Shown here one piece after another: positions 2,389-63,514 of a stretch of DNA of 64,000 nucleotides. The stretch spans positions 41,044,001 through 41,108,000 of the forward strand of contig OZ024752.1 in NCBI GenBank assembly GCA_964016885.1, read 5' to 3'. The position numbers and the translations under genes are program-made. The notes under the pieces were generated by a model, which worked only from the letters and a program-made list of their open reading frames with translations, was not told the origin of the DNA and ran no database searches. This DNA comes from Eledone cirrhosa (Eukaryota). Position 1 is the first letter of the stretch. Each line of letters opens with the position of its first letter.

Positions 2389-3135
<747 letters not shown>

Positions 3136-5318: not shown

Positions 5319-5414
5319 CATACATACATACACATATGCGCACACATGAAGCAGCGATTCTTTGCTTAAACTTTAATCTGTTATTTTAATAAATATATAT
5401 ATATATATATATAT

Positions 5415-5517
5415 AGGAACCAGTAGGACCCCGACGGCTGAGCTCAAGCCGTTTCGACTAAGTATTGAGTACTTTGGTGCGTTATGGTCCACCTGGTTCC
5501 TTACCACATTTCCTTCG

Positions 5518-5518
<1 letters not shown>
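5415..5518 (+). mobile_element. Family A element: inverted arm joined directly to the tail
   Basis: Same two fixed ends as 2432-2611; the forward arm is absent. Confidence 0.8.
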
Positions 5519-5597: not shown

Positions 5598-6205
5598 GGT
5601 GGCTGCCAACTCGTTTTCGAGTACGGCCACTACCTTATATCCATGTAGGAGAACCCCTACCGATGCGCTGAACGAGTGTGACTTTTTAGTCCAGCCAGCG
5701 ACTTGAAAACTCTGGCACAAACACTACACTTGTGACAATTACTGACACATAGTGCTGGGCCCATGGTACCATGTGAGGACAAGTGCAGAGAGATCTCCAG
5801 ATATAAAGCAATGCCTGTGCCGTGAAGCTTTTATAGTGAGCAAAGGCATTGCACAAAGCCAGTCCCACTCTCTTGACCAAGATGATATTTACCAAAAAGA
5901 AGAACAAGTCAACATCATTGGATACCATCAGAGCTGCAGGTGTTATATCAGAGTTTTCCTTCTCCTAGAATTCTGCCTTGACAAAGGCTAAGGGGTCATC
6001 ACTCCCGGTGATTTTGGATGGCCATTGACTCTTAAGAGCTCCTTTGCCCTTTGACAGGTTTTGTTTTTAGTCCTGCAGGATGTCCAAAGTCACCCTCCTC
6101 ACCAAGAAACCTTAGTGGGGTTGCCAGTTTAGTCGCCAACGACCCGACCATGAAACAGGTTGTACTGGGATACATGTTACCAGTAGCACCAACTGGTGAC
6201 CTGAC
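5598..6205 (-). mobile_element. About 610 bp bipartite RTE-derived non-autonomous element (5'UTR-like part plus ORF end and 3' hairpin)
   Basis: Minus strand contains CTAGGAGAAGGAAAACTCTGA (recalled RTE 5' motif) followed by the same zinc-finger and 3' hairpin segment as 2739-3058; flanked by (TA)n. Confidence 0.7.
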
Positions 6206-8785: not shown

Positions 8786-8881
8786 TAATATAGAAGAGCT
8801 TCTACAGGACTAGATCTGTTTCATTCGTGAGAAATCATCAGGAAACTTACTGTGATTATTTCCAATTCAACCCGGAATAAC
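8786..8881. mobile_element. Family B element: inverted hammerhead arm plus short tail
   Basis: Minus TTC-CTGATGA-TTTCTCACGAAT-GAAA-CAG-ATCTAGTC-CTG-TA-GAA; tail TTCAACCCGGAATA. Confidence 0.75.
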
Positions 8882-9857: not shown

Positions 9858-9998
9858 AATGGAAATATTTTAAGTCATCGATGAATCAAATAACTGTAGT
9901 CATACATGGAACTACAAATAAATTCTATCTATCTGCTGCTTCTACTCACAAAACATTTCCTGATTCACAGACAACTCCAGTATATATACATAAATATA

Positions 9999-10197
9999 TT
10001 GGTAAACGGAATAGAAAATGCTGACAAATTGTTCACAGTTGAAAAATGGTTTAATTAGGAATAAAAGAGTATTAGTGATTGTATGGGTTAGTATTCAGTT
10101 GTGGTTTTAAGTTTTTAAGTTTTTACCGGTTGCGCATTTCTAAATGCTTTTCAAAAATAATTTTGAGACAGAGTGTCCGTGCTGTTTGCTCTGATAC
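9999..10197 (-). mobile_element. Family L element with a hammerhead-like variant core
   Basis: Minus TTGAAAA-GCATTT-AG-AAATGC-GCAA-CCGG-TA; homologous to 62892-63158 and to the short end at 29213-29240. Confidence 0.65.
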
Positions 10198-10373
10198 ATA
10201 AATATATATACACATGTACATAAGTGTGTGTGCGCATGTATATGTACATATATATATATGTAAGTATTTATGTATGTATATATGTGTATGTATATATGTA
10301 TAATTTATACATATATATGTGCGTGTTGGCGTGTGTGTGTGTGTATATGTATATATATTTGTGTATGTATATA

Positions 10374-13628: not shown

Positions 13629-13699
13629 TTAGCCGTCGAAACGGCTTGAGCTCAGCCGTCGGGGTCTTACTTGTTCCTATATATATATATATACATATA

Positions 13700-13745
<46 letters not shown>

Positions 13746-13933
13746 AACCAGTAAGACCCCGACAGCTGAGCTCAAGCCGTTTCGACGGCTAATTCTGGAC
13801 AGAATTAGCCGTCGAAACGGCTTGAGCTCAGCTGTCGGGGTCTTACTGGTTCCTATTACCCACTCTACTACCTCAAGTATTGAGTACTTTGGTGCGTTAT
13901 GGTCCACCTGGTTCCTTACCACATTTCCTTCGT
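13629..13933 (+). mobile_element. Two family A insertions: a tail-less arm (13629-13678) and a full fold-back (13743-13933)
   Basis: Same sequence and fixed ends as other family A copies; separated by (TA)n. Confidence 0.8.
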
Positions 13934-17370: not shown

Positions 17371-17456
17371 TGGATATTTCTCCGAGGAAGATATAAATGT
17401 CACCTTCGAATTAATATCTTCGTACAGCATTTGGTGTCTCCTATTTTGTTTATATT

Positions 17457-18145
17457 ATTGGCCTTTCATCCTTACAAGGTCGATAAAATAAAGTACCAGT
17501 AACGCATTGGGGTCGATTTAATCGACTTTCCCCTCCCCCAAAATTACTAGCTTGTGCCTATACTAGAAATCATTATTTTCCTTTCATCCTTACGGGGTCG
17601 ATTAAATAAAGTACCAGTAACGCATTGGGGTCGATTTAATCGACTTTCCCCTCCCCCAAAATTACTAGCTTGTGCCTATACTAGAAATCATTATTTTCCT
17701 TTCATCCTTACGGGGTCGATTAAATAAAGTACCAGTAACGCATTGGGGTCGATTTAATCGACTTTCTCCTCCCCCAAAATTACTAGCTTGTGCCTATACT
17801 AGAAATCATTATTTTCCTTTCATCCTTACGGGGTCAATAAAATAAAGTACCAGTAATGTACTGACGTCGATTTAAACGACTTTCCCCTCCCTCCGAATTA
17901 CTAGCCTTATACCTAAAGTAGAAAACATTATGTGCCTTTCATCCTTACGGGCTCGATTAAATAAAATACCAGTAATGTACTGCGTCGATTTAAACGACTT
18001 TCCCCTCCCTCCGAATTACTAGCCTTGTACCTAAAGTAGAAAACATTATGTGCCTTTCATCCTTACGGAGTTGATAAAATAAAGTACCAGTGATACACTG
18101 GGATAACTGCTGGCCTTGTGCCAAAAGTAGAAACAATTATTTTAT
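17457..18145 (+). repeat. Tandem array of about six ~120 bp units derived from the SINE-A body and tail
   Basis: Repeated CCTTTCATCCTTACGGGGTCGAT...AAGTACCAGTAA...TAGAAA; no tRNA head. Confidence 0.85.
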
Positions 18146-19331: not shown

Positions 19332-19627
19332 ACGATAGTAAACAAATGGAAACTATATTTATAAAACCATATATATTTCATTATACATATTTCAGGGATA
19401 CCATATTAAAAATATGGCATGCCTTCGTCAGATAAAATACAATATATAAACTGTTTTATATTTTTAATATGGTATCCCTGAAATATGTATAATGAAATAA
19501 ATATGGTTTTATAAATATAGTTTCCATTTGTTTACTATCGTATATCTACTCCAAAAACTTGTCGAGTGCTTTATATCGGTTATAAAATATTTACTTGTTG
19601 TAACCCAACAATTTTAAATAAAACTTT

Positions 19628-19631
<4 letters not shown>
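19332..19631 (+). mobile_element. Family D fold-back element in (TA)n
   Basis: Arms 19332-19420 and 19460-19543; tail with GTCGAGTGC; homologous to 59192-59489 and 63319-63447. Confidence 0.8.
19374..19439 (-). ncRNA. Minimal type I hammerhead ribozyme (family D)
   Basis: Stem I TATTTTAT/ATGAAATA; CTGACGA; stem II AGG..CCATATT/AATATGG..CCT; GAAA; stem III ATA-TG-TAT; AUA cleavage triplet. Confidence 0.75.
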
Positions 19632-20598: not shown

Positions 20599-20600
<2 letters not shown>

Positions 20601-20869
20601 GAGCATCGCAAAAGTCAGCTCAAAAGTGACACAGAGGAGATTGAGGTTAGCTGGACATGCTCACCGACATCCAGAGTTGACATTGCACTCAGTGCTCCTT
20701 TGGGAGCCCCTACATGGACACACTAGAAGAGGAAGACCAGGGTTAACGTATGTTGATGCCCTAAGGACAGACACTGGTCTGTTGGAGACGCAGGACATGG
20801 CAGCGATAATGAGGGACAGAGACCGCTGGAGAGAACTCGTCCATGGATCTCGGGAATTTTACCCGCCTT

Positions 20870-20871
<2 letters not shown>
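20599..20871 (+). pseudogene. 3' end of an RTE-clade LINE ORF (5' truncated)
   Basis: RRLRLAGH...W.P.HG..RRGRP...DRDRWR motif series; the TAG stop runs straight into (TA)n; second copy at 40887-41058. Confidence 0.85.
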
Positions 20872-20900
<29 letters not shown>

Positions 20901-20903
<3 letters not shown>

Positions 20904-21090
20904 GAAGTAATTCCATCGGAAAAGTCCAGGAAAAAAGAGTGCTCTATGTAAGCAACAGAGCTTAATTATTATTATTATGTAATAAACAACATAAGGCAAT
21001 TATTCCATTTACCAGTGGTTTCTTAAAAGCAAAAGGTTTTGCTTTCAATCCTCAGAATGAAAAATCCTGGTTTGTTTATTGAATATGGAT
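20901..21090 (-). mobile_element. Family E element (hammerhead-like core without stem II)
   Basis: Minus CTGAGGA-TT-GAAA-GCAAAA-CC-TTTTGC-TT; homologous to 58817-59169. Confidence 0.65.
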
Positions 21091-21263
21091 TCTAAAAACA
21101 AAAATGCAATCTATATGAAAGTGAGGCTGGAAAAGGGAGAAGGAAAGGAAAAATAAAATAAAATAAAACTACACATGCAAACACACACAAAAAAACACAA
21201 AAGCATACTTACACACACACACATATATACACATATAATTTGCACGCATACACATATACACAT

Positions 21264-21343: not shown

Positions 21344-21610
21344 AGAAGTGGTTACACAACAGTTAGTTCACCATACCGAGAACAATTGTTTCACCTTAGC
21401 GGATCCTCAGCTCGGGATGTGTTTGGTTATAGGAACAGGAAGGATATCCCTTCCTGTTCCTATAACCATACACATCCCGAGCTGAAGATCCGCGAAGGTG
21501 AAACAATTGTTCTCGGTATGGTGAACTAACTGTTGTGTAACCACTTCTACCTAACTCGTCCCTTGGACTGAGTGCTCTACCACTACGGATATTACCTTCC
21601 AGTGTTCCAC

Positions 21611-21613
<3 letters not shown>
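21344..21613 (+). mobile_element. Family F fold-back element with ~100 bp arms, in (TA)n
   Basis: Near-perfect palindrome centred on GGATATCC (about 21446) plus a ~65 bp tail containing CTGAGTGC. Confidence 0.85.
21477..21516 (+). ncRNA. Minimal type I hammerhead ribozyme; mirror copy on minus at 21376-21415
   Basis: CCGAG-CTGAAGA-TCC-GCGAA-GGT-GAAA-CAATTG-TT-CTCGG: 5 bp stem I and palindromic stem III. Confidence 0.8.
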
Positions 21614-21644
<31 letters not shown>

Positions 21645-21646
<2 letters not shown>

Positions 21647-21930
21647 CGTTTCTGCATTTGTTTAGCAAGATTCTTTATCTGAAATCGTGTGTTGAAACCG
21701 ATATTCTTGTACTTTGGGAGGGTCATGAAGTCACTGAAGAGGTCACAGAGTGTGTGACGAAAGAACTATGACTATATATATATAAACAACTATCTGGTTG
21801 TGGAACCAACCAACCAACCAGAAATTTATAAATTTATAAATTTGTAAATTTATAAATATATAATAAATTAAATTGAAGTGAAAGCAACTGGTGCGTGTGT
21901 TTCTTATTGGCAACATGACCCTCCCAAAGT

Positions 21931-21938
<8 letters not shown>
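21645..21938. mobile_element. Family N element with short inverted ends (GTACTTTGGGAGGGTCATG / CATGACCCTCCCAAAGTAC)
   Basis: Homologous to 57790-57988 and 49529-49885; flanked by (TA)n. Confidence 0.75.
21729..21773 (+). ncRNA. Type I hammerhead ribozyme (family N)
   Basis: AGTCA-CTGAAGA-G-GTCAC-AGAGTGT-GTGAC-GAAA-GAAC-TA-TGACT; all three stems pair. Confidence 0.8.
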
Positions 21939-21979
<41 letters not shown>

Positions 21980-22027
21980 TATATTAATTAAAAATATTAA
22001 CAAAATAGATATTCTTGTGATCAAGTA

Positions 22028-22094
22028 TATTTTATTATACATATTTCAGAGGTACTGAGTTAACTTCAACAGTACGTCCTCATCAGATAAAATA
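22028..22094 (-). ncRNA. Type I hammerhead ribozyme within a family D2 element (21983-22152; second copy 49219-49394)
   Basis: TATTTTAT-CTGATGA-GGACGTACTG...CAGTACCTCT-GAAA-TATGTAT-A-ATAAAATA; 8 bp perfect stem I. Confidence 0.8.
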
Positions 22095-22220
22095 AGATGA
22101 TGCATGACATACCCTGACATAGTAGATGGTTAAGATTCAGTCATGGTAGTGAATGTTGAGTGCTTCCAATCTATTGTAAAACTCATTCTTTGATTTATTC
22201 ATTGAACTTTGTTTAACTTT

Positions 22221-22302
<82 letters not shown>

Positions 22303-22306
<4 letters not shown>

Positions 22307-22692
22307 GTTATGCAAGAAATGCTTAGGATTATCCTGAATTCAGTAATGGTTAATTACTACACTAGATAGAGTTGACGTACGGTGAGGGGTTACTCAACGA
22401 GTTATGGAAGAATAGTTAAAGAAACTCGGTTTCCGATTCTTCTGTATTTCGGAGTATAGATAAAGAATGAATAATAAAACAGGTAGACATCCTTAAAAAG
22501 GTAATTTATTCCGAGTGCTTTTTTGCTCTGAAGACACGGTAGGATAAACAGCATTTGAAAATTGAATATCTGCAAATAAATAACTACCAATTTGTACATA
22601 ACATGACTAGGCTGTGTAACTACTGTAGAAACATTTGTAAGCACTCGGAATGGATTACCTTTTTATGATATCTACCTGTTTTATTATTCATT

Positions 22693-22698
<6 letters not shown>
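22303..22698. mobile_element. Family G element; hammerhead with a very long stem II at 22524-22643 (+)
   Basis: Inverted arms 22460-22520 and 22640-22698; TGCT-CTGAAGA-CACGGTAG...CTACTGTA-GAAA-CATTTG-TA-AGCA. Confidence 0.65.
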
Positions 22699-25916: not shown

Positions 25917-26650
25917 GGGCGGTGGGTTGGCAGTATCGGTAGAGGGTCGGGCGCCATGTTTTGCAAGCACGGATTTACGGCGCTTTACGGTCAAATCTCG
26001 CCGAGGTTAACTTTGCCTTTCATCTTTACGGGGGTAGATAAAATAAAGTACCAGTAATGCACTGGGTATTTGATGGCCTTGTGCCTATATAAGAAACCAT
26101 TGGCAGTATCGGTAGAGGGTCGGGCGCCATGTTTTGCAAGCACAGATTTACGGCGCTTTACGGTCAAATCTCGCCGAGGTTAACTTTGCCTTTCATCTTT
26201 ACGGGGGTATATAAAATAAAGTACCAGTAATGCACTGGTTAATTGATGGCCTTGTGCCTATATAAGAAACCATTGGCAGTATCGGTAGAGGGTCGGACGC
26301 CATGCTTTCCAGCATAGTTACGTCCCTTTGCGATCTGAGTTCAAATCTCGCCGAGGTTGACTTTGCCTTTCATCTTTACGGGGTAGATAAAATAAAGTAC
26401 CAGTAATGCACTGGGTAATTTATGGCCTTGTGCCTATAAAAGAAACTATTATTAGTATTAGTAGTGGATTGGCAGAATCGGTGGAGGATCGGACGCCATG
26501 CTTTGCAGCATAGAGTTACGTCCCTTTACGGTCACAGTTCAAATCCATCCGAGGTTAACTTTGCCTTTCATCCTTACGGGGTCGATAAAATAAAGTACCA
26601 GTAATACACTGACGTAATTGCTGGCCTTGTGCCAAAAGTAGATGCCATTA
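25917..26650 (+). mobile_element. Four head-to-tail SINE-A copies
   Basis: A box TGGCAG(T/A)ATCGG at about 25929, 26101, 26274 and 26470, each followed by body and tail. Confidence 0.85.
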
Positions 26651-26785: not shown

Positions 26786-27124
26786 GTGTGTGTAGGTGTG
26801 TTGTATGTGTGTGAATATGTATGGATATCAATTGCGCATTGTTGAAGGTCGAACTGAGAAATCTTACAGTGATCAATACCCCAATAATGGAGATGAGTTG
26901 ATTGACTTGCTGAACACAACAGTTATGAGAAGAAAAGCGCATATAAGGGTGGTGCCCCAGAATGGCCTCAGCTGGCTGGCTGAAACAGGTAGGAAAAACG
27001 TAAAAGGGTGTAGATGCCACAGAAAGACTCCAATGACAACACAGTATATTGCTTTGATAGATTTCGGCCAGTATTGGCCCCGGACCATGTCTAAATTAAT
27101 AGCACTACTTGGCAAAATTACAAT

Positions 27125-27197
27125 TACCTCTGACGGGACTCGAACCCGCAATCCCCGGCTTAGGAGGCCGGTGCCTTATCCATTGGGCCACAGAGGC
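27125..27197 (-). tRNA. tRNA-Arg-CCT: tRNA-Arg (anticodon CCT), copy 1
   Basis: GCCTCTG-TG-GCCCAATGGATAAGGC-A-CCGGC-CTCCTAA-GCCGG-GGATT-GCGGG-TTCGAGT-CCCGT-CAGAGGT-A; 73 nt cloverleaf with a TTTT terminator just downstream. Confidence 0.95.
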
Positions 27198-27347
27198 TTA
27201 CGGAAACACACTTAAGAATTTATCTATATATACATACGTATTGATGTATATATATTACATATTATATATATTATATATATATATACATAAAGCGATAAAA
27301 TACCAATGATGGTTGGAAGATAACTGATGAAGGACTAACTTTATTCA

Positions 27348-27756: not shown

Positions 27757-28208
27757 GTTAAAGAATGAAGAATAACATGGTCGGCTGTACAAAAAGGGTT
27801 TATTTACAGTATTAACAATTGTTTCAATAATCAGGTGAGCCTAAAAGCCGCTGGTCGCTAGAAAAAAAAAGACGATACGCATGACACTCGTGTGTATGTG
27901 TCTGTGTATGTGTAGATGTGTGTGGCATGTGTGGGAATATGTATGGATATCAATTGCGTATTGTTGAAGGTCGAACTGAGTAACCAGCAATGGAGATAAT
28001 TTGATTGACTTGCTAAACACAGTAGTCCTGAGAAAAAGAACAAATAAGGGTGGTGCCCCAGAATGGCCTCAGCCGGCTGGCTGAAACAGGTAGGAAAAAA
28101 GTAAAAGAGTGTATATGCTATAGAAAGACTCCAATGGCAACACAGTGTATTGCTTTGATAGATTTCAGCCAGTATTGACCTCGGGTCATACAGTTGGCAA
28201 AATTAAAA

Positions 28209-28281
28209 TACCTCTGACGGGACTCGAACCCGCAATCACCGGCTTAGGAGGCCGGTGCCTTATCCATTGGGCCACAGAGGC
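28209..28281 (-). tRNA. tRNA-Arg-CCT: tRNA-Arg (anticodon CCT), copy 2
   Basis: Identical to copy 1 except G>T at the first variable-loop base; TTTT immediately follows the discriminator. Confidence 0.93.
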
Positions 28282-28448
28282 TTACGGAAACAGAAGTAAG
28301 AATTTAAATATATATACAAACGTTTACAAATTATATATATATATACATATATATATTTATCAATTTATCTATATATATATATATATATGTTTGTTGAGTG
28401 AGATGGTTACCAGTCGGAGTTTAGCGTAAAGCTTTCTCTGTTACTGTA

Positions 28449-29063: not shown

Positions 29064-29070
29064 CATATAT

Positions 29071-29180
29071 TGAGCTCAGCCGTCGGGCTCCTACTCGTTC
29101 TTATTACCCACTCTACTACCCTAAGTATTGAGTACTTTGGTGCGTTATGGTCCATCTGGTTCCTTACCATATTTTCTTCG

Positions 29181-29181
<1 letters not shown>
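29071..29181 (+). mobile_element. Family A element, 5' truncated forward copy
   Basis: GAGCTCAGCCGTC...TATTGAGTAC...TTCTTCGT|(TA)n. Confidence 0.8.
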
Positions 29182-40297: not shown

Positions 40298-40301
<4 letters not shown>

Positions 40302-40482
40302 ACGAGTAGGACCGCGACGGATGAGCTCAAACCGTTTCGACGGCTAATTCTGTACTAAATTTAGTCCAGAATTAACCGTCGAAACGGCTTGAGCTCAGCC
40401 GTCGGGGTCCTACTCGTTCCTATTACCCACTCTACTACCCTAAGTATTGAGTACACCTGGTTCCTTACCACATTTCCTTCGT
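40298..40482 (+). mobile_element. Family A fold-back element
   Basis: Same ends as other copies; centre CTGTACTAAATTTAGTCCAG; short deletion in the tail. Confidence 0.8.
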
Positions 40483-40743: not shown

Positions 40744-41058
<315 letters not shown>

Positions 41059-41061
41059 TAC

Positions 41062-42859: not shown

Positions 42860-42954
42860 ATGTGAGTGTGTGTGTGTGTGTTAAGTATTTCCGAAGAAAA
42901 ATCAAAGGAAAAAAGAGTGCTCTCTGTGTAATACAGAGCTAACATATATATATA

Positions 42955-45102: not shown

Positions 45103-45162
<60 letters not shown>

Positions 45163-45227
45163 CCCCCTTTTTAATGTATTTCCACCATTCCCCTCACACC
45201 CTCGCAGAACTCTTTTCCTTCCCACCT

Positions 45228-45258
45228 TTCTCCTGATGAAGGGCCTATGCCCGAAACG
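45228..45258 (+). ncRNA. Degenerate minimal hammerhead motif
   Basis: CTGATGA-A-GGGC-CTAT-GCCC-GAAA-CG; the cleavage-site U is missing. Confidence 0.5.
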
Positions 45259-45777
45259 CCCCCACCCCCACTGTTCGTACTGCACTCTTTGTTATTGTTT
45301 TTGTTTTTTGTTTCTTATATATATATATGTATGTATATATATGTGTGTGTGTGAGTGTGATGTGTGTGGGGGGGGTGTATGTGTGTGTATGTGTCCATGT
45401 GTGTGCGTGTGTTTGTGTGAAATACAAATACACAGGAGGAACCTCAACCTCTTGTACTAGGGACTTTCTTTCCTTCTTATTTACACAACTATTTGTGCCC
45501 TACCCTTATAAACGCACACACACACGCACACACACTCACACATTCACACACACACACATATACACTCACACACTCACACACTCACATACACGTATAGTTG
45601 TGCATGTATGCATGTATGTATGAGTATGCACATATTTCTACGTGCGTGTGAGTTTCTATATGTGTGTGTGTATGATCGTGTGTGTGTGTGTGTGTGTGAT
45701 ATCTGTGTGATGTGCGTGTGTGTGTGTGTGTGTGTGTGTCTGTGTGTATGTGTCTGTGTGTGTATGTGTAGGTGTGC

Positions 45778-47155: not shown

Positions 47156-47314
47156 CAACCATCCTTTTTAGGACACCCTCTCACTTTCCTAGGGACTCTA
47201 TCATTTGTTTGCCAACTGTTTGTTAAATGTAGCTATTACCCAAAGTTAGGAATTACCTTGACCTTCGGCAAGATGTGAGACAGAAACAGAGCTCAAAAAA
47301 AGCTTCATTTAGTA

Positions 47315-47875
47315 ATAATTCTTTCTACTTTTGGCACAAGGCCAGCAATTATCCCAGTGTATTACTGGTACTTTATTCTATCGACCCCGTAAGGATGAAA
47401 GGCAAAGTTAACCTCGGCGGGATTTGAACTCAAAATAGAGATAACTGGTTCTACTTTTGGCACAAGGCCAGCAATTACCCAGTGCATTACTGGTACTTTA
47501 CTTTATCGACTCCGCAAGGATGAAAGGCAAAGTTAACCTCAGCGGGATTTGAACTCAAAATAGAGATAACTGTTTCTACTTTTGGCACAAGGCCAGCAAT
47601 TACCCCAGTGCATTACTGGTACTTTATTTTATCGACCCCGCAAGGATGAAAGGCAAAGTTAACCTCAGCGGGATTTGAACTAAAAATAGAGATAACTGTT
47701 TCTACTTTTGGCACAAGGCCAGCAAATACCCCAGTGCATTACTGGTACTTTATTTTATCGACCCCGTAAGGATGAAAGGCAAAGTTAACCTCGGCGGGAT
47801 TTGAACTCTGAACGTAAATGACCGTAACTCTATGCTGCAAAGCATGGCGTCTGACACTCTACCGATTCTGCCAAA
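47315..47875 (-). mobile_element. SINE-A with three extra tandem ~125 bp body/tail units
   Basis: One head at about 47875 followed by repeated B-box-to-tail units. Confidence 0.85.
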
Positions 47876-48906: not shown

Positions 48907-48948
<42 letters not shown>

Positions 48949-48951
<3 letters not shown>

Positions 48952-49149
48952 AACGAGTAGGACCCCAACGGCTGAGCTCAAGCCGTTTCGACGGCTAATT
49001 CTGGACTACTTTAGTCCAGAATTAGCCGTCGAAACGGCTTCAGCTCAGCCGTCGGGGTCCTACTCGTTCCTATTACCCACTCTACTACCCTAAGTATTGA
49101 GTACTTTGGTGCGTTATGGTCCACCTGGTTCCTTACCACATTTCCTTCG

Positions 49150-49150
<1 letters not shown>
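48949..49150 (+). mobile_element. Family A fold-back element, most complete copy
   Basis: About 60 bp arms around CTGGACTA-CTT-TAGTCCAG plus an ~80 bp tail. Confidence 0.85.
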
Positions 49151-49219
<69 letters not shown>

Positions 49220-49700
49220 TAATTCAAAATATTAACAAAATATATATTCTTGTGATCAAGTATATTTTATTATACATATTTCATATTTCAGAGGTACTGA
49301 GTTAACTTCAACAGTACGTCCTCATCAGATAAAATAAGATGATGCATGACATACCCTGACATAGTAGATGGTTAAGATTCAGTCATGGTAGTGAGTAAGA
49401 TATGACAAAACTCAATATTTATATACCTTAATATTCAGAACATGAGAAAAATATATAATACATAATATAGAGAGGGTACGTGTGAGACAGCTTAAAAAAT
49501 ACTTAGCATCAATATATATATATATATATTGTTATACTTGGGGAGGGTCATATTGTTGTAATAATATTGCCAGAAATAATAACAGAAAACACTCACTGTT
49601 TGGTTGGTTTTCGCCTCGGTATCTTTTATATCGCCATAGTTAATTTATTTGGCAATCAATTGAACGGTTAAAAATACAGATATAAATATATATATATAGT

Positions 49701-49746
49701 CTATCAAAGTTCTTTCGTTGCACATCTGAAACCTCATCAGTGGTAG
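49701..49746 (-). ncRNA. Hammerhead ribozyme within a family N-like element (49529-49885)
   Basis: CTACCA-CTGATGA-G-GTT...AAC-GAAA-GAAC-TT-TGATAG. Confidence 0.65.
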
Positions 49747-49877
49747 TAGTAGTATCTTCCCTCCTATTGTATTGTAATGTCTACACCATTTCTATTTTAT
49801 TTCTGACAATATTACAACAATATGACCCTCCCCAAGTATAACAATATTTGTTTTGACACACGATTTCACATTTGCAA

Positions 49878-49920
<43 letters not shown>

Positions 49921-50762: not shown

Positions 50763-50807
<45 letters not shown>

Positions 50808-50998
50808 GGAAAAATTTGAACAGGAACAAAACAGAGAGGCAGTACAACGAATGTTTATTAATTTCACGCTCTGGAGAGTGGGGTGTTGGTGGGGAACGAC
50901 GTTTCGGGCATAAACCCTTCCTCAGGTGAGAAGTGTGTGGGAACAGAGTTCAAAGGGTGTGTAGGGGAGTGGTGGAGAGACATATAGCGAAAGGAAAC

Positions 50999-55096: not shown

Positions 55097-55415
<319 letters not shown>

Positions 55416-57767: not shown

Positions 57768-57789
57768 TTATATATATATATATATTATT

Positions 57790-57988
57790 ATTGTTATACT
57801 TTGGGAGGGTCATGTTGCCAATAAGAAACACACGCACCAGTTGCTTTCACTTCAATTTATTATAATAAATTTATAATAAATTTATAAATTTATAAATTTC
57901 TGGTTGACCCTCCCAAAGTATAACAATATCGGTTTCAACACACGATTTCAGATAAAGAATCTTGCTAAACAAATTCAGAAACGAAATA
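57790..57988. mobile_element. Family N element (short)
   Basis: Reverse-orientation homolog of 21645-21938, lacking the hammerhead. Confidence 0.75.
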
Positions 57989-58185: not shown

Positions 58186-58190
<5 letters not shown>

Positions 58191-58486
58191 TAAAATAACA
58201 GATTAAAGTTTAAGCAAAGAATCGCTGCTTTCACCCTTAACGGGATCTTCTGAAACTAACAAAGTCAATCTGTAAACGCAGAACTGGATATTTCAAAAAA
58301 CGTTGCAACCGGAGGAAGACAGGAAGACGATACTTTGGTTCGTGGTAACGTTCGCTGGCAAAGAACGGGAAAAAACGAATAATACGTCATTAATAGGAGC
58401 GGTGAAAATCTACGGTTCTTATATATTTGATATATATTTTCCTTATCGAGCCCTCTTTGGATTTTAGTCTTCAATTTTATTATTAT

Positions 58487-58490
<4 letters not shown>
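58186..58490. mobile_element. Family K element; shorter two-ended versions at 59542-59651 and 61411-61483, and an end fragment at 5347-5393
   Basis: Shared ends AATCTGTTATTTTAATAAA and AGTAATAATAATAAA..GAAGACTAAAATCC; decayed core CAGAAGA-TCCC-GTTAA-GGGT-GAAA on minus. Confidence 0.65.
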
Positions 58491-58816: not shown

Positions 58817-58821
<5 letters not shown>

Positions 58822-59169
58822 TGTAATAAACAACAAAAAGGCAATTATTTCATTTACCAGTGGTTTCTTAAAAGCAAAACAATTTTGCTTTCAATCATCA
58901 GAATGAAAAAATCCTGGTGTATTTATTGGCGTTGGAGTTTAAAAACAAATTTAAAAAAAAAAATGTTTAAACAATTTTAAAATCCAACGCCAATAAATAC
59001 ACCAGGATTTTTTTCATTCTGATGATTGAAAGCAAAATTTTTTTGCTTTTAAGAAACCACTGGTAAATGAAATAATTGCCTTATGTTGTTTATTACATAA
59101 CTATTAAGCTCTGTTACCTACATAGAGCACTCTTTTTTCCTGGACTTTTCCGACGGAATTACTTCATTC
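58817..59169 (+). mobile_element. Family E fold-back element
   Basis: About 125 bp arms; CTGATGA-TT-GAAA at 59019-59031; the tail also occurs at 20901-20962 and 42882-42943. Confidence 0.8.
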
Positions 59170-59191
59170 ACACACACATATATATATATAT

Positions 59192-59487
59192 GTAAAAGTT
59201 CTATTTAAATTGTTGGGATACAACAAGCAAATATTTTTATAACTGATATAAAGCACTCAACAAATAATTGGAGTAAAAATACGATATTAACAAATGGAAA
59301 CTATATTTATAAAACAATATTTATTTCATTATACATTTTTCAAGGACACCAAGTTAAATTATGGTGTGCTTTCATCAGATAAAATATAATATAGAGCAGT
59401 TTTATAAATAATTTAACTTGGTGTCCTTGAAATATGTATAATGAAATAAATATGCTTTTATAAATATAGTTTCGATTTGTTAATATC

Positions 59488-59489
<2 letters not shown>
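59192..59489 (-). mobile_element. Family D fold-back element; hammerhead at 59322-59386 (-)
   Basis: TATTTTAT-CTGATGA-AAGCACACCA...TGGTGTCCTT-GAAA...ATGAAATA. Confidence 0.8.
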
Positions 59490-59545
<56 letters not shown>

Positions 59546-59646
59546 ATAATAATAAATTTGAAGACTAAAATCCAAAGAGGGCTCGATAAGGATAAATATA
59601 TATCAAATATATAAGAACCGTAGAGCAAATATAATCTGTTATTTTA

Positions 59647-59698
<52 letters not shown>

Positions 59699-59701
<3 letters not shown>

Positions 59702-59806
59702 AACGAGTAGGACCCCGACGGCTGAGCTCAAGCCGTTTCGACGGCTAATTCTGGACTCAATTCTGGTGCGTTATGGTCCACCTGGTTCCTTACCACATCT
59801 CCTTCG

Positions 59807-59807
<1 letters not shown>
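59699..59807 (+). mobile_element. Family A element: inverted arm plus short tail
   Basis: Same fixed ends as other copies. Confidence 0.8.
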
Positions 59808-60169: not shown

Positions 60170-60575
60170 AACGTCCCTTTACAGTCTGAGTTCAAATCCC
60201 GCCGAGGTTAACTTTGCCTTTCATCCTTACGGGGTCGATAAAATAAAGTACCAGTAATGTACTGGGTAATTGCTGGCCTTGTGCCAAAAGTAGAAACAAT
60301 TATTATTGCCGAGGTTGATTTTGCCTTTCATCCTTACGGGGTCGATAAAATAAAGTACCAGTAATGCACTGGGTAATTGCTGGCCTTGTGCCTAAAGTAG
60401 AAACAATTATTTATTCAAAGTGCTTTGCAGCACAGTTACGTCCCTTTACGAACTGAGTTCAAATCCCGCCGAGGTTAACTTTGCCTTTCATCCTTACGGG
60501 GTCGATAAAATAAAGTACCAGTAATGTACTGGGTAATTGCTGGCCTTGTGCCAAAAAGTAGAAACAATTATTTAT
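60170..60575 (+). mobile_element. Three tandem 5' truncated SINE-A copies
   Basis: Repeated GCCTTTCATCCTTACGGGGTCGATAAAATAAAGTACCAGT...GTAGAAACAATTAT. Confidence 0.85.
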
Positions 60576-60977
60576 TCAAAGTAATCCAACTTATTTTACT
60601 AAGGGGATAAAAAAAATTATAAACCGTACGCAGTCCCGCACTTCTTACTTTATTATAGTTTAGATTTCATTACTGCACTAGGGCTTGATGTACACAACCA
60701 CAAGGATATGGTCCGGATGTTGAAGAGCCGAACTCCCACAGTCATCGCCTCCATCTCTCTCGCTGTTGTTGATTCGTCTGTTTGAGTTCCCAAGCTTAAA
60801 GGCATTTCAGTTTTTTTTTCAATTGTAAATAGTAATTTGGCTTGTTTAAGATTATTGAAAAGCTCAGATTAATTCTACAAGTAAACAAGCCAGCGTTTCA
60901 ACAAATTTTAATTGTTTTAAAATCATTAATTTAAAACATTCCAGCACCGTTATAAAAATAAGGCGCTGACAGGGATG

Positions 60978-61345: not shown

Positions 61346-61504
61346 CATATATATGTATATGTACATATATATATCTATATATACACACACATATATATAT
61401 ATATATATATAGTAATAATAATAAATGTGAAGACTAAAATCCCAAGATTCTTTGCTTAAACTTTAATCTGTTAGTTTAATAAATATATATATATATATAT
61501 GTGT

Positions 61505-62339: not shown

Positions 62340-62422
62340 TATAATCGACTAAAATAAATAAATTAATAAATATATATATATATATATATTTATTAATTTA
62401 TTTTTTTAAATAAGACTCCAGT

Positions 62423-62456
<34 letters not shown>

Positions 62457-62616
62457 ACTGGAGTCTTATTTAAAAAAATATATATATATTTATTTGGTTC
62501 CTTTACCGGTTTCGCAGTTCTTCTGCTTTTCAAAAGTAGAGTTGAGATGGAGGGTCTGTGGTTTTTCTCACATCTCTCTCTCTATATATATATATATATA
62601 TTTATTAATTTATTTA

Positions 62617-62652
62617 CTTTTGAAAAGCAGAAAAACTGCGAAACCGGTAAAG
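62617..62652 (+). ncRNA. Hammerhead variant with U3-A8 core (family M); mirror copy on minus at about 62501-62536
   Basis: CTT-TTGAAAA-GCAG-AAAAA-CTGC-GAAA-CCGG-TA-AAG. Confidence 0.6.
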
Positions 62653-62891
62653 GAACCAAATATATATATATATTGTTTTATAAATAAGACTTTTCGATTT
62701 CATCTTTTTTTCTTTATACTTTCACTCGTGTAGGACACCTCGGTTATTTTTCATTCTGTAAAAAAAAACCTCACTTTCTAATATATATATATATATATAT
62801 ATTATGGACACTACCGTATATTTTGGTAGATTTATCTACATATATATATATATATATTTATTAATTTATATATATAATTTATATATATATA

Positions 62892-63158
62892 TTAGTAAAA
62901 AGGAAAAGAAAATGCTGACAAATTTTTTCCAGTGAAGTATAGTTTAATTAGAAATAAGTATAAATTAGTAATAAGTATTGGTTAATATTCAGTTTTAGTT
63001 TTAAGTTTTTACCGGTTGCGCATTTCTAATGCTTTTCAAAAAAATTAAAACTAAAACTGAATACTAACCAATACTTATTACTAATTTATACTTATTCCTA
63101 ATTAAACTATTTTTCACTGGGAAAAATTTGTCAGCATTTTCTTTTCCTTTTTACTAAT
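62892..63158. mobile_element. Family L fold-back element
   Basis: About 110 bp arms; minus TTGAAAA-GCATT-AGA-AATGC-GCAA-CCGG-TA near 63007-63042. Confidence 0.75.
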
Positions 63159-63192
63159 ATATCACAACTCGTGTGTCACACCTCTATTTTTT

Positions 63193-63322
<130 letters not shown>

Positions 63323-63443
63323 AAAGTTCTATTTAAAATTGTTGGGATACAACAAGTAAATATTTTATAACTGATATAAAGCACTCGACAAGTTTTTGGA
63401 GTAGATATACGATATTAAATAAATGGAAACTATATTTATAAAA

Positions 63444-63514
<71 letters not shown>

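What the first reader, a model, noticed from the sequence alone, without database searches (positions are those of the whole stretch)
48949..49150. Two fixed ends with a variable junction: a shared integration signature
In family A the inverted arm always starts at the same base ((TA)n|GGAACGAG) and the forward copy always ends ~80 bp further on (TTCCTTCGT|(TA)n). Only the internal junction varies: long fold-backs at 2432, 13743, 40298 and 48949, and no overlap at 5415 and 59699. Families B (8786 versus 55097), D, E, F, K and N follow the same pattern. Inference: both strands of a cut (TA)n prime reverse transcription at two defined RNA positions. Unlike L1 twin priming, the two cDNAs overlap, implying two templates or template re-use. 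Inverted pLTRs with an optional tail are known for Penelope, but this regularity across many families is notable.
Basis: partly seen in the sequence, partly recalled or inferred. Interest (0 to 1): 0.75.

Follow-up and report, generated by a model that had tools for sequence, protein, structure and literature searches.

The report
Two-site primed Penelope fold-back insertions
These short hairpin-shaped inserts in TA repeats are stubs of Penelope-type jumping genes, made when both cut DNA ends start copying the element's RNA at two fixed spots, a known habit that here comes with a conserved RNA hairpin that may set those spots.

Summary
Observation confirmed. In family A, 6 of 6 inverted arms start at End-1 (49070), 7 of 7 direct copies end at End-2 (49150), and all six junctions differ. 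About 22,000 reads per run show the same two ends running into (TA)n and 13 arm-to-direct joints, all different. Ten other families show the layout, less strictly. They are 5'-truncated Penelope-like (PLE) insertions: five families carry type-I hammerheads, and hammerhead plus (TA)n target fits the Hydra clade. Two fixed internal start sites and extension of both strands were shown in vitro in 2024, so the core inference is known. Not found in my searches: tails of mostly 57-90 nt, a covarying bulged hairpin 6-8 nt after End-1, and stops of the End-2 cDNA at that hairpin or at End-1. The hairpin also occurs in three published Hydra consensus sequences and retrieved two unrelated hammerhead-bearing inversions. 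Arms overlap in 18 of 25 two-part copies. One RNA copied twice is likelier than two RNAs but is unproven. No ORF was found, so clade membership is indirect. The scan noted one similar PLE fold-back in another genome.

The parts
48919..48949 (.). left (TA)n target tract; its 3' end is the inferred primer for the arm cDNA
48950..49008 (-). inverted arm: copy of 49012-49070, starting at End-1
49009..49009 (.). junction base between arm and direct copy
49010..49150 (+). direct (sense) copy, family A, ending at End-2 (49150)
49031..49060 (+). 3' half of a type-I hammerhead (GAAAC, short stem III, GTC triplet 49051-49053); 5' half not present in any window copy
   Evidence: read by eye; not a hit in the full-motif scan
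49070..49073 (+). End-1 (49070) followed by TAT, which matches the (TA)n flank
49071..49150 (+). tail between the two start sites (80 nt)
49079..49102 (+). bulged hairpin RCTC-stem-loop-stem-bulge-GAGY shared with families B-E
49151..49206 (.). right (TA)n tract; inferred primer for the End-2 cDNA
2432..2611 (+). family A fold-back copy
5416..5518 (+). family A, no overlap between arm and direct copy
13630..13677 (+). family A End-1-only piece
13744..13933 (+). family A fold-back; both arms share three subfamily letters
29070..29181 (+). family A direct copy without arm
40299..40482 (+). family A fold-back, no loop, most diverged copy
59700..59807 (+). family A, no overlap
55098..55314 (+). 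family B fold-back with a full hammerhead on each arm, tail 68 nt (other copies at 8786, 9017, 39878, 43049)
19332..19630 (+). family C; arm 42 nt longer than the overlap, tail 89 nt (other copies 59192-59488, 63320-63445)
58818..59168 (+). family D fold-back with hammerheads, tail 67 nt (other copies 20901-21097, 42880-42943)
21345..21613 (+). family E fold-back with hammerheads, tail 66 nt
62893..63195 (+). family F fold-back, tail 39 nt
57789..57985 (+). family G; arm about 90 nt longer than the overlap (others 21645-21936, 49530-49882)
21985..22223 (+). family H arm with hammerhead plus non-overlapping direct piece (second arm at 49220)
22304..22695 (-). family I; arm 118 nt longer than the overlap, tail 159 nt
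58187..58489 (+). family J, no overlap (others 59543-59650, 61412-61482, arm only 5349-5392)

Best explanation
These are 5'-truncated insertions of endonuclease-bearing Penelope-like retroelements, most likely Hydra clade for families A-E. The element's protein binds its RNA at or near a conserved bulged hairpin and cuts a (TA)n tract on both strands. One DNA end pairs through 1-6 nt with UA/UAU 6-8 nt upstream of the hairpin and primes there (End-1). The other end primes 40-60 nt downstream of the hairpin (End-2). The two cDNAs face each other and are end-joined. If the End-2 cDNA stalls in the hairpin or at End-1 there is no overlap. If it reads through, displacing the first cDNA from the same RNA, a fold-back results, and both cDNAs tend to stop near the same upstream limit. 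Shown here: fixed ends, variable joints, hammerheads, hairpin covariation, clustering of stops. Shown elsewhere in vitro for a Poseidon PLE: two internal start sites, both strands cut and extended. Inferred: protein binding to the hairpin, a dimer on one RNA, strand displacement. My odds: about 0.9 for PLE origin with two fixed priming sites, about 0.5 for one re-used RNA.
For: Fixed ends and distinct joints. 12 type-I hammerhead hits in families B, C, D, E, H against a mean of 0.04 in 50 shuffles. End-1 matches the (TA)n flank for 1-6 nt in 16 of 17 arms. Hairpin in 13 of 22 tail segments, five families, with different complementary inner stems; 0.05-0.65% in shuffled tails of those families, 1.0% at random sites. 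By eye it is also in Hydra-2_Amil, Hydra-2_Ajap and the 5' start of Hydra-1_Ajap. Of 43 pattern matches in 41 outside loci, the only two with an inner stem of 4 bp (L019, L032) both carry an inverted arm and a hammerhead or its 3' half; none of the other 41 has a full hammerhead within 350 nt upstream. For one RNA: 0 of 19 two-part copies in multi-copy families have two tails (about 0.006 under free choice, computed for 18). In 12 of 13 read joints the direct copy starts at End-1 (4), in the hairpin (6) or up to 10 nt past it (2). J58187, J59543 and D42880 also start 4-6 nt before the hairpin position. Both arms of 13744 share three subfamily letters. Inner ends coincide within 1 nt in 3 of 8 overlapping A/B copies (permutation p 0.04, post hoc). 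Frangieh 2024.
Against: No RT or GIY-YIG frame in the window (0 relevant Pfam hits in 72 frames), and no family motif was found in the published consensus files. Family A shows only half a hammerhead. Tails are longer than the published 30-40 nt. The hairpin is absent by my rule from 9 of 22 segments (F, G, H, I, J and two B copies), was defined after looking at the tails, is not the minimum-energy fold in A, and MAFFT did not align it. Shared subfamily letters fit two RNAs from one locus equally well, and the 2432 arm has a subfamily letter that its direct copy lacks. A protein-bound hairpin would also stop a polymerase on a second RNA. Strand displacement by a PLE RT was not tested. RAD reads are clonal per locus, and 485 loose-end rows and 3 joint rows were not shown.
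Confidence: 0.6

Rival explanations
1. Same PLE origin and two start sites, but each cDNA is made on its own RNA molecule (a dimer holding two RNAs, or two tandem units of one long or circular RNA).
For: Overlaps of 21-128 nt need no strand displacement. A PLE homodimer is predicted and tandem transcripts are described (PMC11167929). Circular or multimeric templates were proposed (PMC4209133). The 2432 arm differs from its direct copy at a common polymorphic site.
Against: Does not by itself explain why one end uses End-1 and the other End-2 in 19 of 19 two-part copies of multi-copy families, nor the stops at End-1.
Confidence: 0.2
2. One cDNA from End-2 folds back and copies itself; the endonuclease trims the product at End-1; unstable palindromes later lose part of their centre, which makes the variable junction.
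For: 7 of 25 copies are palindromes with inner ends within 6 nt. Self-priming was proposed for head-to-head PLE palindromes (PMC3846280), and the tail was ascribed to EN-mediated resolution (PMC8557442). End-1 of A is followed by ATT, the preferred cut of the anole enzyme.
Against: In 15 of 25 copies the arm holds sequence that the direct copy lacks (8 longer arms, 7 without overlap), which needs a second deletion each time. The two no-overlap A copies are among the least diverged (1/103, 2/105 differences), while the most diverged copy (6/184) is a loop-less palindrome (n = 6). End-1-only pieces exist. RT starts at both tail ends in vitro.
Confidence: 0.14
3. A MITE or foldback DNA transposon copied from one master.
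For: Short, inverted-repeat-bearing, TA-flanked.
Against: All six A junctions and all 15 shown read joints differ; inverted repeats are one-sided; hammerheads are present.
Confidence: 0.03
4. Fold-backs arise from replication or assembly errors at self-complementary (TA)n tracts.
For: (TA)n covers 16% of the window. 13630 and 13744 face each other across a TA run, and 62390-62477 is a palindrome centred on one.
Against: Such an event copies the sequence next to the tract, so it would invert the End-2 tail, not start 80 nt inside. Raw reads of independent runs show the same ends. L032 has the layout without a (TA)n tract.
Confidence: 0.03

Closest known systems
Hydra-clade Penelope-like elements (Craig et al. 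2021, PMC8557442; includes Hydra-1_Obim of Octopus bimaculoides)
   Same: (TA)n targets; canonical type-I hammerhead near the 3' end with a short stem III; the same bulged hairpin, by eye, in three of six new consensus sequences.
   Different: No ORF here, and five family motifs were not found in the consensus files. In the sections read, the paper does not describe the hairpin, 57-90-nt tails or the End-1/End-2 pairing.
Poseidon PLE of Anolis (PAc) in vitro (Frangieh et al. 2024, PMC11167929)
   Same: Two internal RT start sites bounding the tail; both strands cut and extended; AT-rich target; hammerhead-uncleaved RNA as template (arms here run through the cleavage site).
   Different: Tail 30-40 nt inside the ORF start; priming described as not homologous to the target, whereas End-1 here shows 1-6 nt of pairing; joined inverted products were not analysed.
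Inverted pLTR plus one-sided tail of canonical PLEs and Naiads (PMC3846280; PMC8557442)
   Same: Head-to-head inverted 5'-truncated copy, tail on one side only, palindromic junction.
   Different: Described mostly for long copies; explained by self-priming or EN resolution. Naiads lack canonical hammerheads.
L1 twin priming (as described in PMC2912911)
   Same: Both target ends prime cDNA, one internally, and the cDNAs are joined with little microhomology.
   Different: L1 starts at the 3' terminus and at an internal site found by annealing (variable; recalled). Here both sites are fixed, and most window copies overlap by tens of bases.
Non-LTR retrozymes (bioRxiv 10.64898/2026.07.22.740005)
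   Same: Short non-coding hammerhead-bearing PLE derivatives.
   Different: Retrozymes are head-to-tail tandem units; these are head-to-head, each with its own junction.

Membership tests
EN+ Penelope-like elements | ORF with telomerase-like RT and GIY-YIG endonuclease | not testable with these tools
   Only truncated ends in the window; 72 stop-free frames gave no RT/EN hit; no genome held.
EN+ Penelope-like elements | inverted 5'-truncated copy joined head-to-head, tail on one side | tested here: met
   25 two-part copies
EN+ Penelope-like elements | tail of 30-40 nt | tested here: not met
   A 80, B 68, C 89-90, D 67, E 66, G 57-62, J about 81, I 159; only F and the 49530 copy are 37-39
EN+ Penelope-like elements | type-I hammerhead in the terminal repeat | tested here: met
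   12 hits in B, C, D, E, H vs 0.04 expected; Rfam at gathering threshold found none
EN+ Penelope-like elements (family A itself) | complete hammerhead | tested here: inconclusive
   Only the 3' half is present; all copies stop at or after 49010
Hydra clade | insertion into (TA)n with canonical hammerhead | tested here: met
Hydra clade | RT with RWK and DKT motifs, EN lacking CCHH, CxCX5C linker | not testable with these tools
   no coding sequence available
Hydra clade | sequence likeness to published consensus ends | tested here: inconclusive
   Hairpin and adjoining letters of family D match Hydra-2_Ajap by eye; five exact 14-15-letter motifs gave no hit; no alignment was run
Naiad clade | (TA)n target but no canonical hammerhead | tested here: not met
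   Canonical motifs in five families; cannot be excluded for families without one (F, J)
MITE / foldback DNA transposon | terminal inverted repeats at both ends and copies identical in structure | tested here: not met
   one-sided arm, all junctions differ
Non-LTR retrozyme | head-to-tail tandem units each with a hammerhead | tested here: not met
   none of these families shows in the tandem arrays listed (150 of 243 rows shown) or in the self-comparison

The most novel reading that the evidence does not exclude
Hydra-clade PLEs use a bulged RNA hairpin conserved across animal phyla as a positioning element: a protein dimer bound to it starts one cDNA a fixed 6-8 nt upstream and a second downstream on the same RNA, and read-through with strand displacement copies one template twice. 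This would explain the inverted pLTR and the one-sided tail of PLEs in one step.
Probability: 0.35. Interest if true: 0.72.

Novelty: new variant of a known kind. Interest (0 to 1): 0.5.

Why it matters
How PLEs make inverted terminal repeats with a one-sided tail is named as an open question (PMC8557442). A genome with dozens of such stubs per 64 kb (41 listed pieces, 7.9 kb, 12% of the window) records very many integration events. A defined hairpin and two defined start sites give direct mutational tests. These stubs are also easily mis-annotated as MITEs.

Tried and rejected
No genome held for the window. Rfam gathering scan found only tRNA-like hits, no hammerhead. Exact scan of metagenome contigs for a family A tail motif: 0 matches. 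No RNA holder listed among runs. Run X4 (organism B) laid only 3 contigs and says nothing about ends. Empty (TA)n alleles and target-site duplications were not testable: the target is itself a TA run and the laid stretch had no flanks. MAFFT did not align the tail hairpin, so no covariance model was built; covariation rests on a pattern parse. 41 of 43 outside pattern matches are treated as chance; the one opened (L005) lies in a bacterial gene. Hammerhead-cleaved RNA as main template was rejected: arms run through the cleavage site, and no read joint starts at 49054. A retained intron ending at AG 49023-49024, splitting the family A hammerhead, was considered and could not be tested. Supplement text of PMC11167929 gave no hit for four terms; its figures S1-S2, which I could not see, may show the stem-loop and bear on the novelty of the hairpin. 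[quoted passage not shown]

Full report
Setting. The window is animal DNA with 458 (TA)n runs covering 16% of it and no recognisable protein gene (72 stop-free complex frames; only two sub-threshold low-complexity Pfam hits). No genome is held, and the run list codes the host as organism A. I took it for an octopus from recalled likeness of its SINE repeats; that is recall and was not tested.

The observation. The focal copy 48950-49150 is a 59-nt inverted arm, one junction base and a 141-nt direct copy between TA runs. Family A has six two-part copies. All six arms start at the base matching 49070 (End-1), and all seven direct copies end at 49150 (End-2). The inner ends, as arm/direct in 49xxx coordinates, are 025/019, 028/091, 014/018, 010/010, 012/010 and 010/107, so all junctions differ. 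One copy has no arm (29070) and one piece has only End-1 (13630).

Reads. I laid two RAD runs and two contig sets on 49010-49150. 22,372 and 22,862 reads were laid. The best-supported loose ends run into (TA)n at 49073 (3,309 and 2,789 reads; End-1 plus TAT) and, after subfamily letters, in register with End-2 (rows 49140, 49147) or End-1 (row 49061). X1 contigs show the same places; X4 gave 3 contigs only. Of 18 opposite-strand joints 15 were shown, 13 of them arm-to-direct, all different. The arm inner end lies at 49010-49017 in 10 of 13 (p about 1e-5 against 41 detectable places). The direct copy starts at 49067-49070 in 4, at 49079-49102 in 6, up to 10 nt further in 2 and at 49050 in 1. 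Most joints show no shared letters. Caveats: RAD reads are clonal per locus; about 7,000 molecules per run end at the AATT at 49020, probably the enzyme site; long fold-backs are under-detected; 485 loose-end rows were not shown, so this is not a full histogram.

Other families. Self-comparison gave ten more families with this layout (my letters A' and B-J). Of 25 two-part copies, 7 are palindromes with inner ends within 6 nt. In 8 the arm reaches 15-200 nt further upstream than the direct copy, in 1 the direct copy is 45 nt longer, 2 have loops I could not assign, and 7 have no overlap. Tails are 57-90 nt in most families, 37-39 in two and 159 in one. End-1 is less strict in B (exact in 2 of 5). 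Two small palindromes (40569, 62490) appear tail-less.

What they are. A scan for type-I hammerheads gave 12 hits, all in families B, C, D, E and H, on the strand of the direct copy, against a mean of 0.04 in 50 shuffles. Rfam at its gathering scores found none. Family A shows only the 3' half. Hammerheads mark PLE terminal repeats (PMC4209133, parts 1-2 of 4 read). An inverted 5'-truncated copy with a one-sided 30-40-nt tail is the typical PLE layout (PMC3846280, passages; PMC8557442, passages, outline and sections 11 and 15). Hammerhead plus (TA)n target is the Hydra clade, which has an octopus member (supplement tables). Membership stays indirect, because no ORF is present and five exact motifs were not found in the consensus files.

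Known mechanism. Frangieh et al. 2024 (PMC11167929, parts 1-2 of 4 read, which hold the main text) showed for an anole Poseidon element that both target strands are cut and extended. RT starts at two internal sites that bound the tail, uncleaved RNA is the template, and a dimer is predicted.

What the window adds. First, RNA letters past End-1 match the (TA)n flank for 1-6 nt in 16 of 17 arms. Second, 6-8 nt after End-1 families A-E carry a hairpin RCTC-stem-loop-stem-bulge-GAGY whose inner stem differs by family yet pairs (TAC/GTA, TGC/GTA, CAA/TTG, TGT/ACA, GTCC/GGAC). It was found in 13 of 22 tail segments, in 0.05-0.65% of shuffles of A-E tails and in 1.0% of random sites; the rule was written after seeing the tails. 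By eye the hairpin stands at the 3' end of Hydra-2_Amil and Hydra-2_Ajap and at the very 5' start of Hydra-1_Ajap, which suggests the tail is the start of the next unit. As an outside test, a family D pattern gave 43 matches in 41 metagenome and viral loci. Only two had a 4-bp inner stem, and both are the same kind of insertion. L032, on an animal contig with GPCR-like frames, has 54-nt arms, a hammerhead 3' half and the hairpin 4 nt after the last shared letter. L019 has a full antisense hammerhead arm and a direct piece without overlap. None of the other 41 matches had a full hammerhead within 350 nt upstream.

One RNA or two. For one RNA: none of 19 two-part copies in multi-copy families has two tails. 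The End-2 cDNA tends to stop in the hairpin or at End-1 (reads; also J58187, J59543, D42880). Both arms of 13744 share three letters that are common subfamily variants in the reads, and C arms are 83/84 alike against 83-88% between C copies. Inner ends coincide within 1 nt in 3 of 8 overlapping A/B copies (p 0.04, post hoc). Against: two RNAs from one locus give the same sharing, a bound hairpin blocks any polymerase, and the 2432 arm has a variant its direct copy lacks. Overlap on one RNA needs strand displacement, which is inferred. Snap-back of a single cDNA cannot directly give the 15 of 25 copies whose arm holds sequence missing from the direct copy. Later central deletion could, but the no-overlap A copies are among the least diverged (n = 6). 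A MITE master is ruled out by the distinct junctions. L1 twin priming (PMC2912911, passages; bioRxiv 2022.05.18.492429, one passage) matches the no-overlap class except that both start sites here are fixed.

Novelty. Eight searches found no paper on the hairpin, on tails of this length or on End-1/End-2 pairing within one insertion; 'Penelope' with 'twin priming' and 'GIY-YIG' gave 0 papers. The octopus repeat annotation (PMC13282606, part 1 of 3 and passages) does not mention hammerheads. The retrozyme preprint (part 1 of 5) concerns tandem units. The library lacks most subscription journals and I could not see supplementary figures. One earlier scan note describes a similar PLE fold-back in another genome; look-ups by place and by sequence returned nothing.

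Verdict. A real feature and a new variant of a known kind. The two-site priming is known; the conserved hairpin and the clustered stops make the open question of inverted-pLTR formation testable. Interest 0.5.

Noticed in passing
window 27125-27197 and 28209-28281: Two tRNA-Arg(CCT) genes inside a diverged 400-bp duplication, 26814-27222 and 27936-28306, 80% alike.
   Followed up: partly
window 13630-13792: An End-1-only piece faces the arm of the 13744 copy across a 66-bp TA run; it shares one of that copy's three variants. A third cDNA, a separate insertion or a tract-centred fold-back.
   Followed up: partly
window 62390-62477: Perfect palindrome centred on a (TA)14 run, next to a tail-less hammerhead-like pair at 62490-62659.
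   Followed up: no
window 49010-49024: Family A arms stop near 49010-49017, a possible third landmark (RNA 5' end or RT block). A subfamily in the reads runs on upstream of 49023. An AG at 49023-49024 could be an intron end splitting the hammerhead.
   Followed up: partly
window 22304-22695: Family I: hammerhead-like core with a roughly 100-nt stem II insert; the direct copy starts about at the cleavage site, and the tail is 159 nt.
   Followed up: partly
window 45157-45315 and 50806-50998: Minimal-hammerhead pieces ending in T-rich sequence and (TA)n, without the tail hairpin; probably another PLE clade.
   Followed up: no
window 62893-63195, 9989-10201, 62490-62659: Family F has a hammerhead-like fold with a degenerate first core box.
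   Followed up: no
window 2711-3058 / 5598-5939 and 20599-20871 / 40887-41061: Two other repeat families whose 3' ends run into (TA)n without an inverted arm; LINE-like by recall.
   Followed up: no
window 17454-18091, 25927-26450, 47313-47874, 60171-60577: A very common ~190-bp SINE-like repeat, often in partial tandem arrays.
   Followed up: no
L032:1242-1397 and 510-702: Further inverted repeats (57-nt and 33-nt arms) near the fold-back at 1773-1887.
   Followed up: no
read joints on 49010-49150: Rare opposite-strand joints 49073-49150 and 49075-49126, i.e. End-1 abutting the tail end without a TA run.
   Followed up: no
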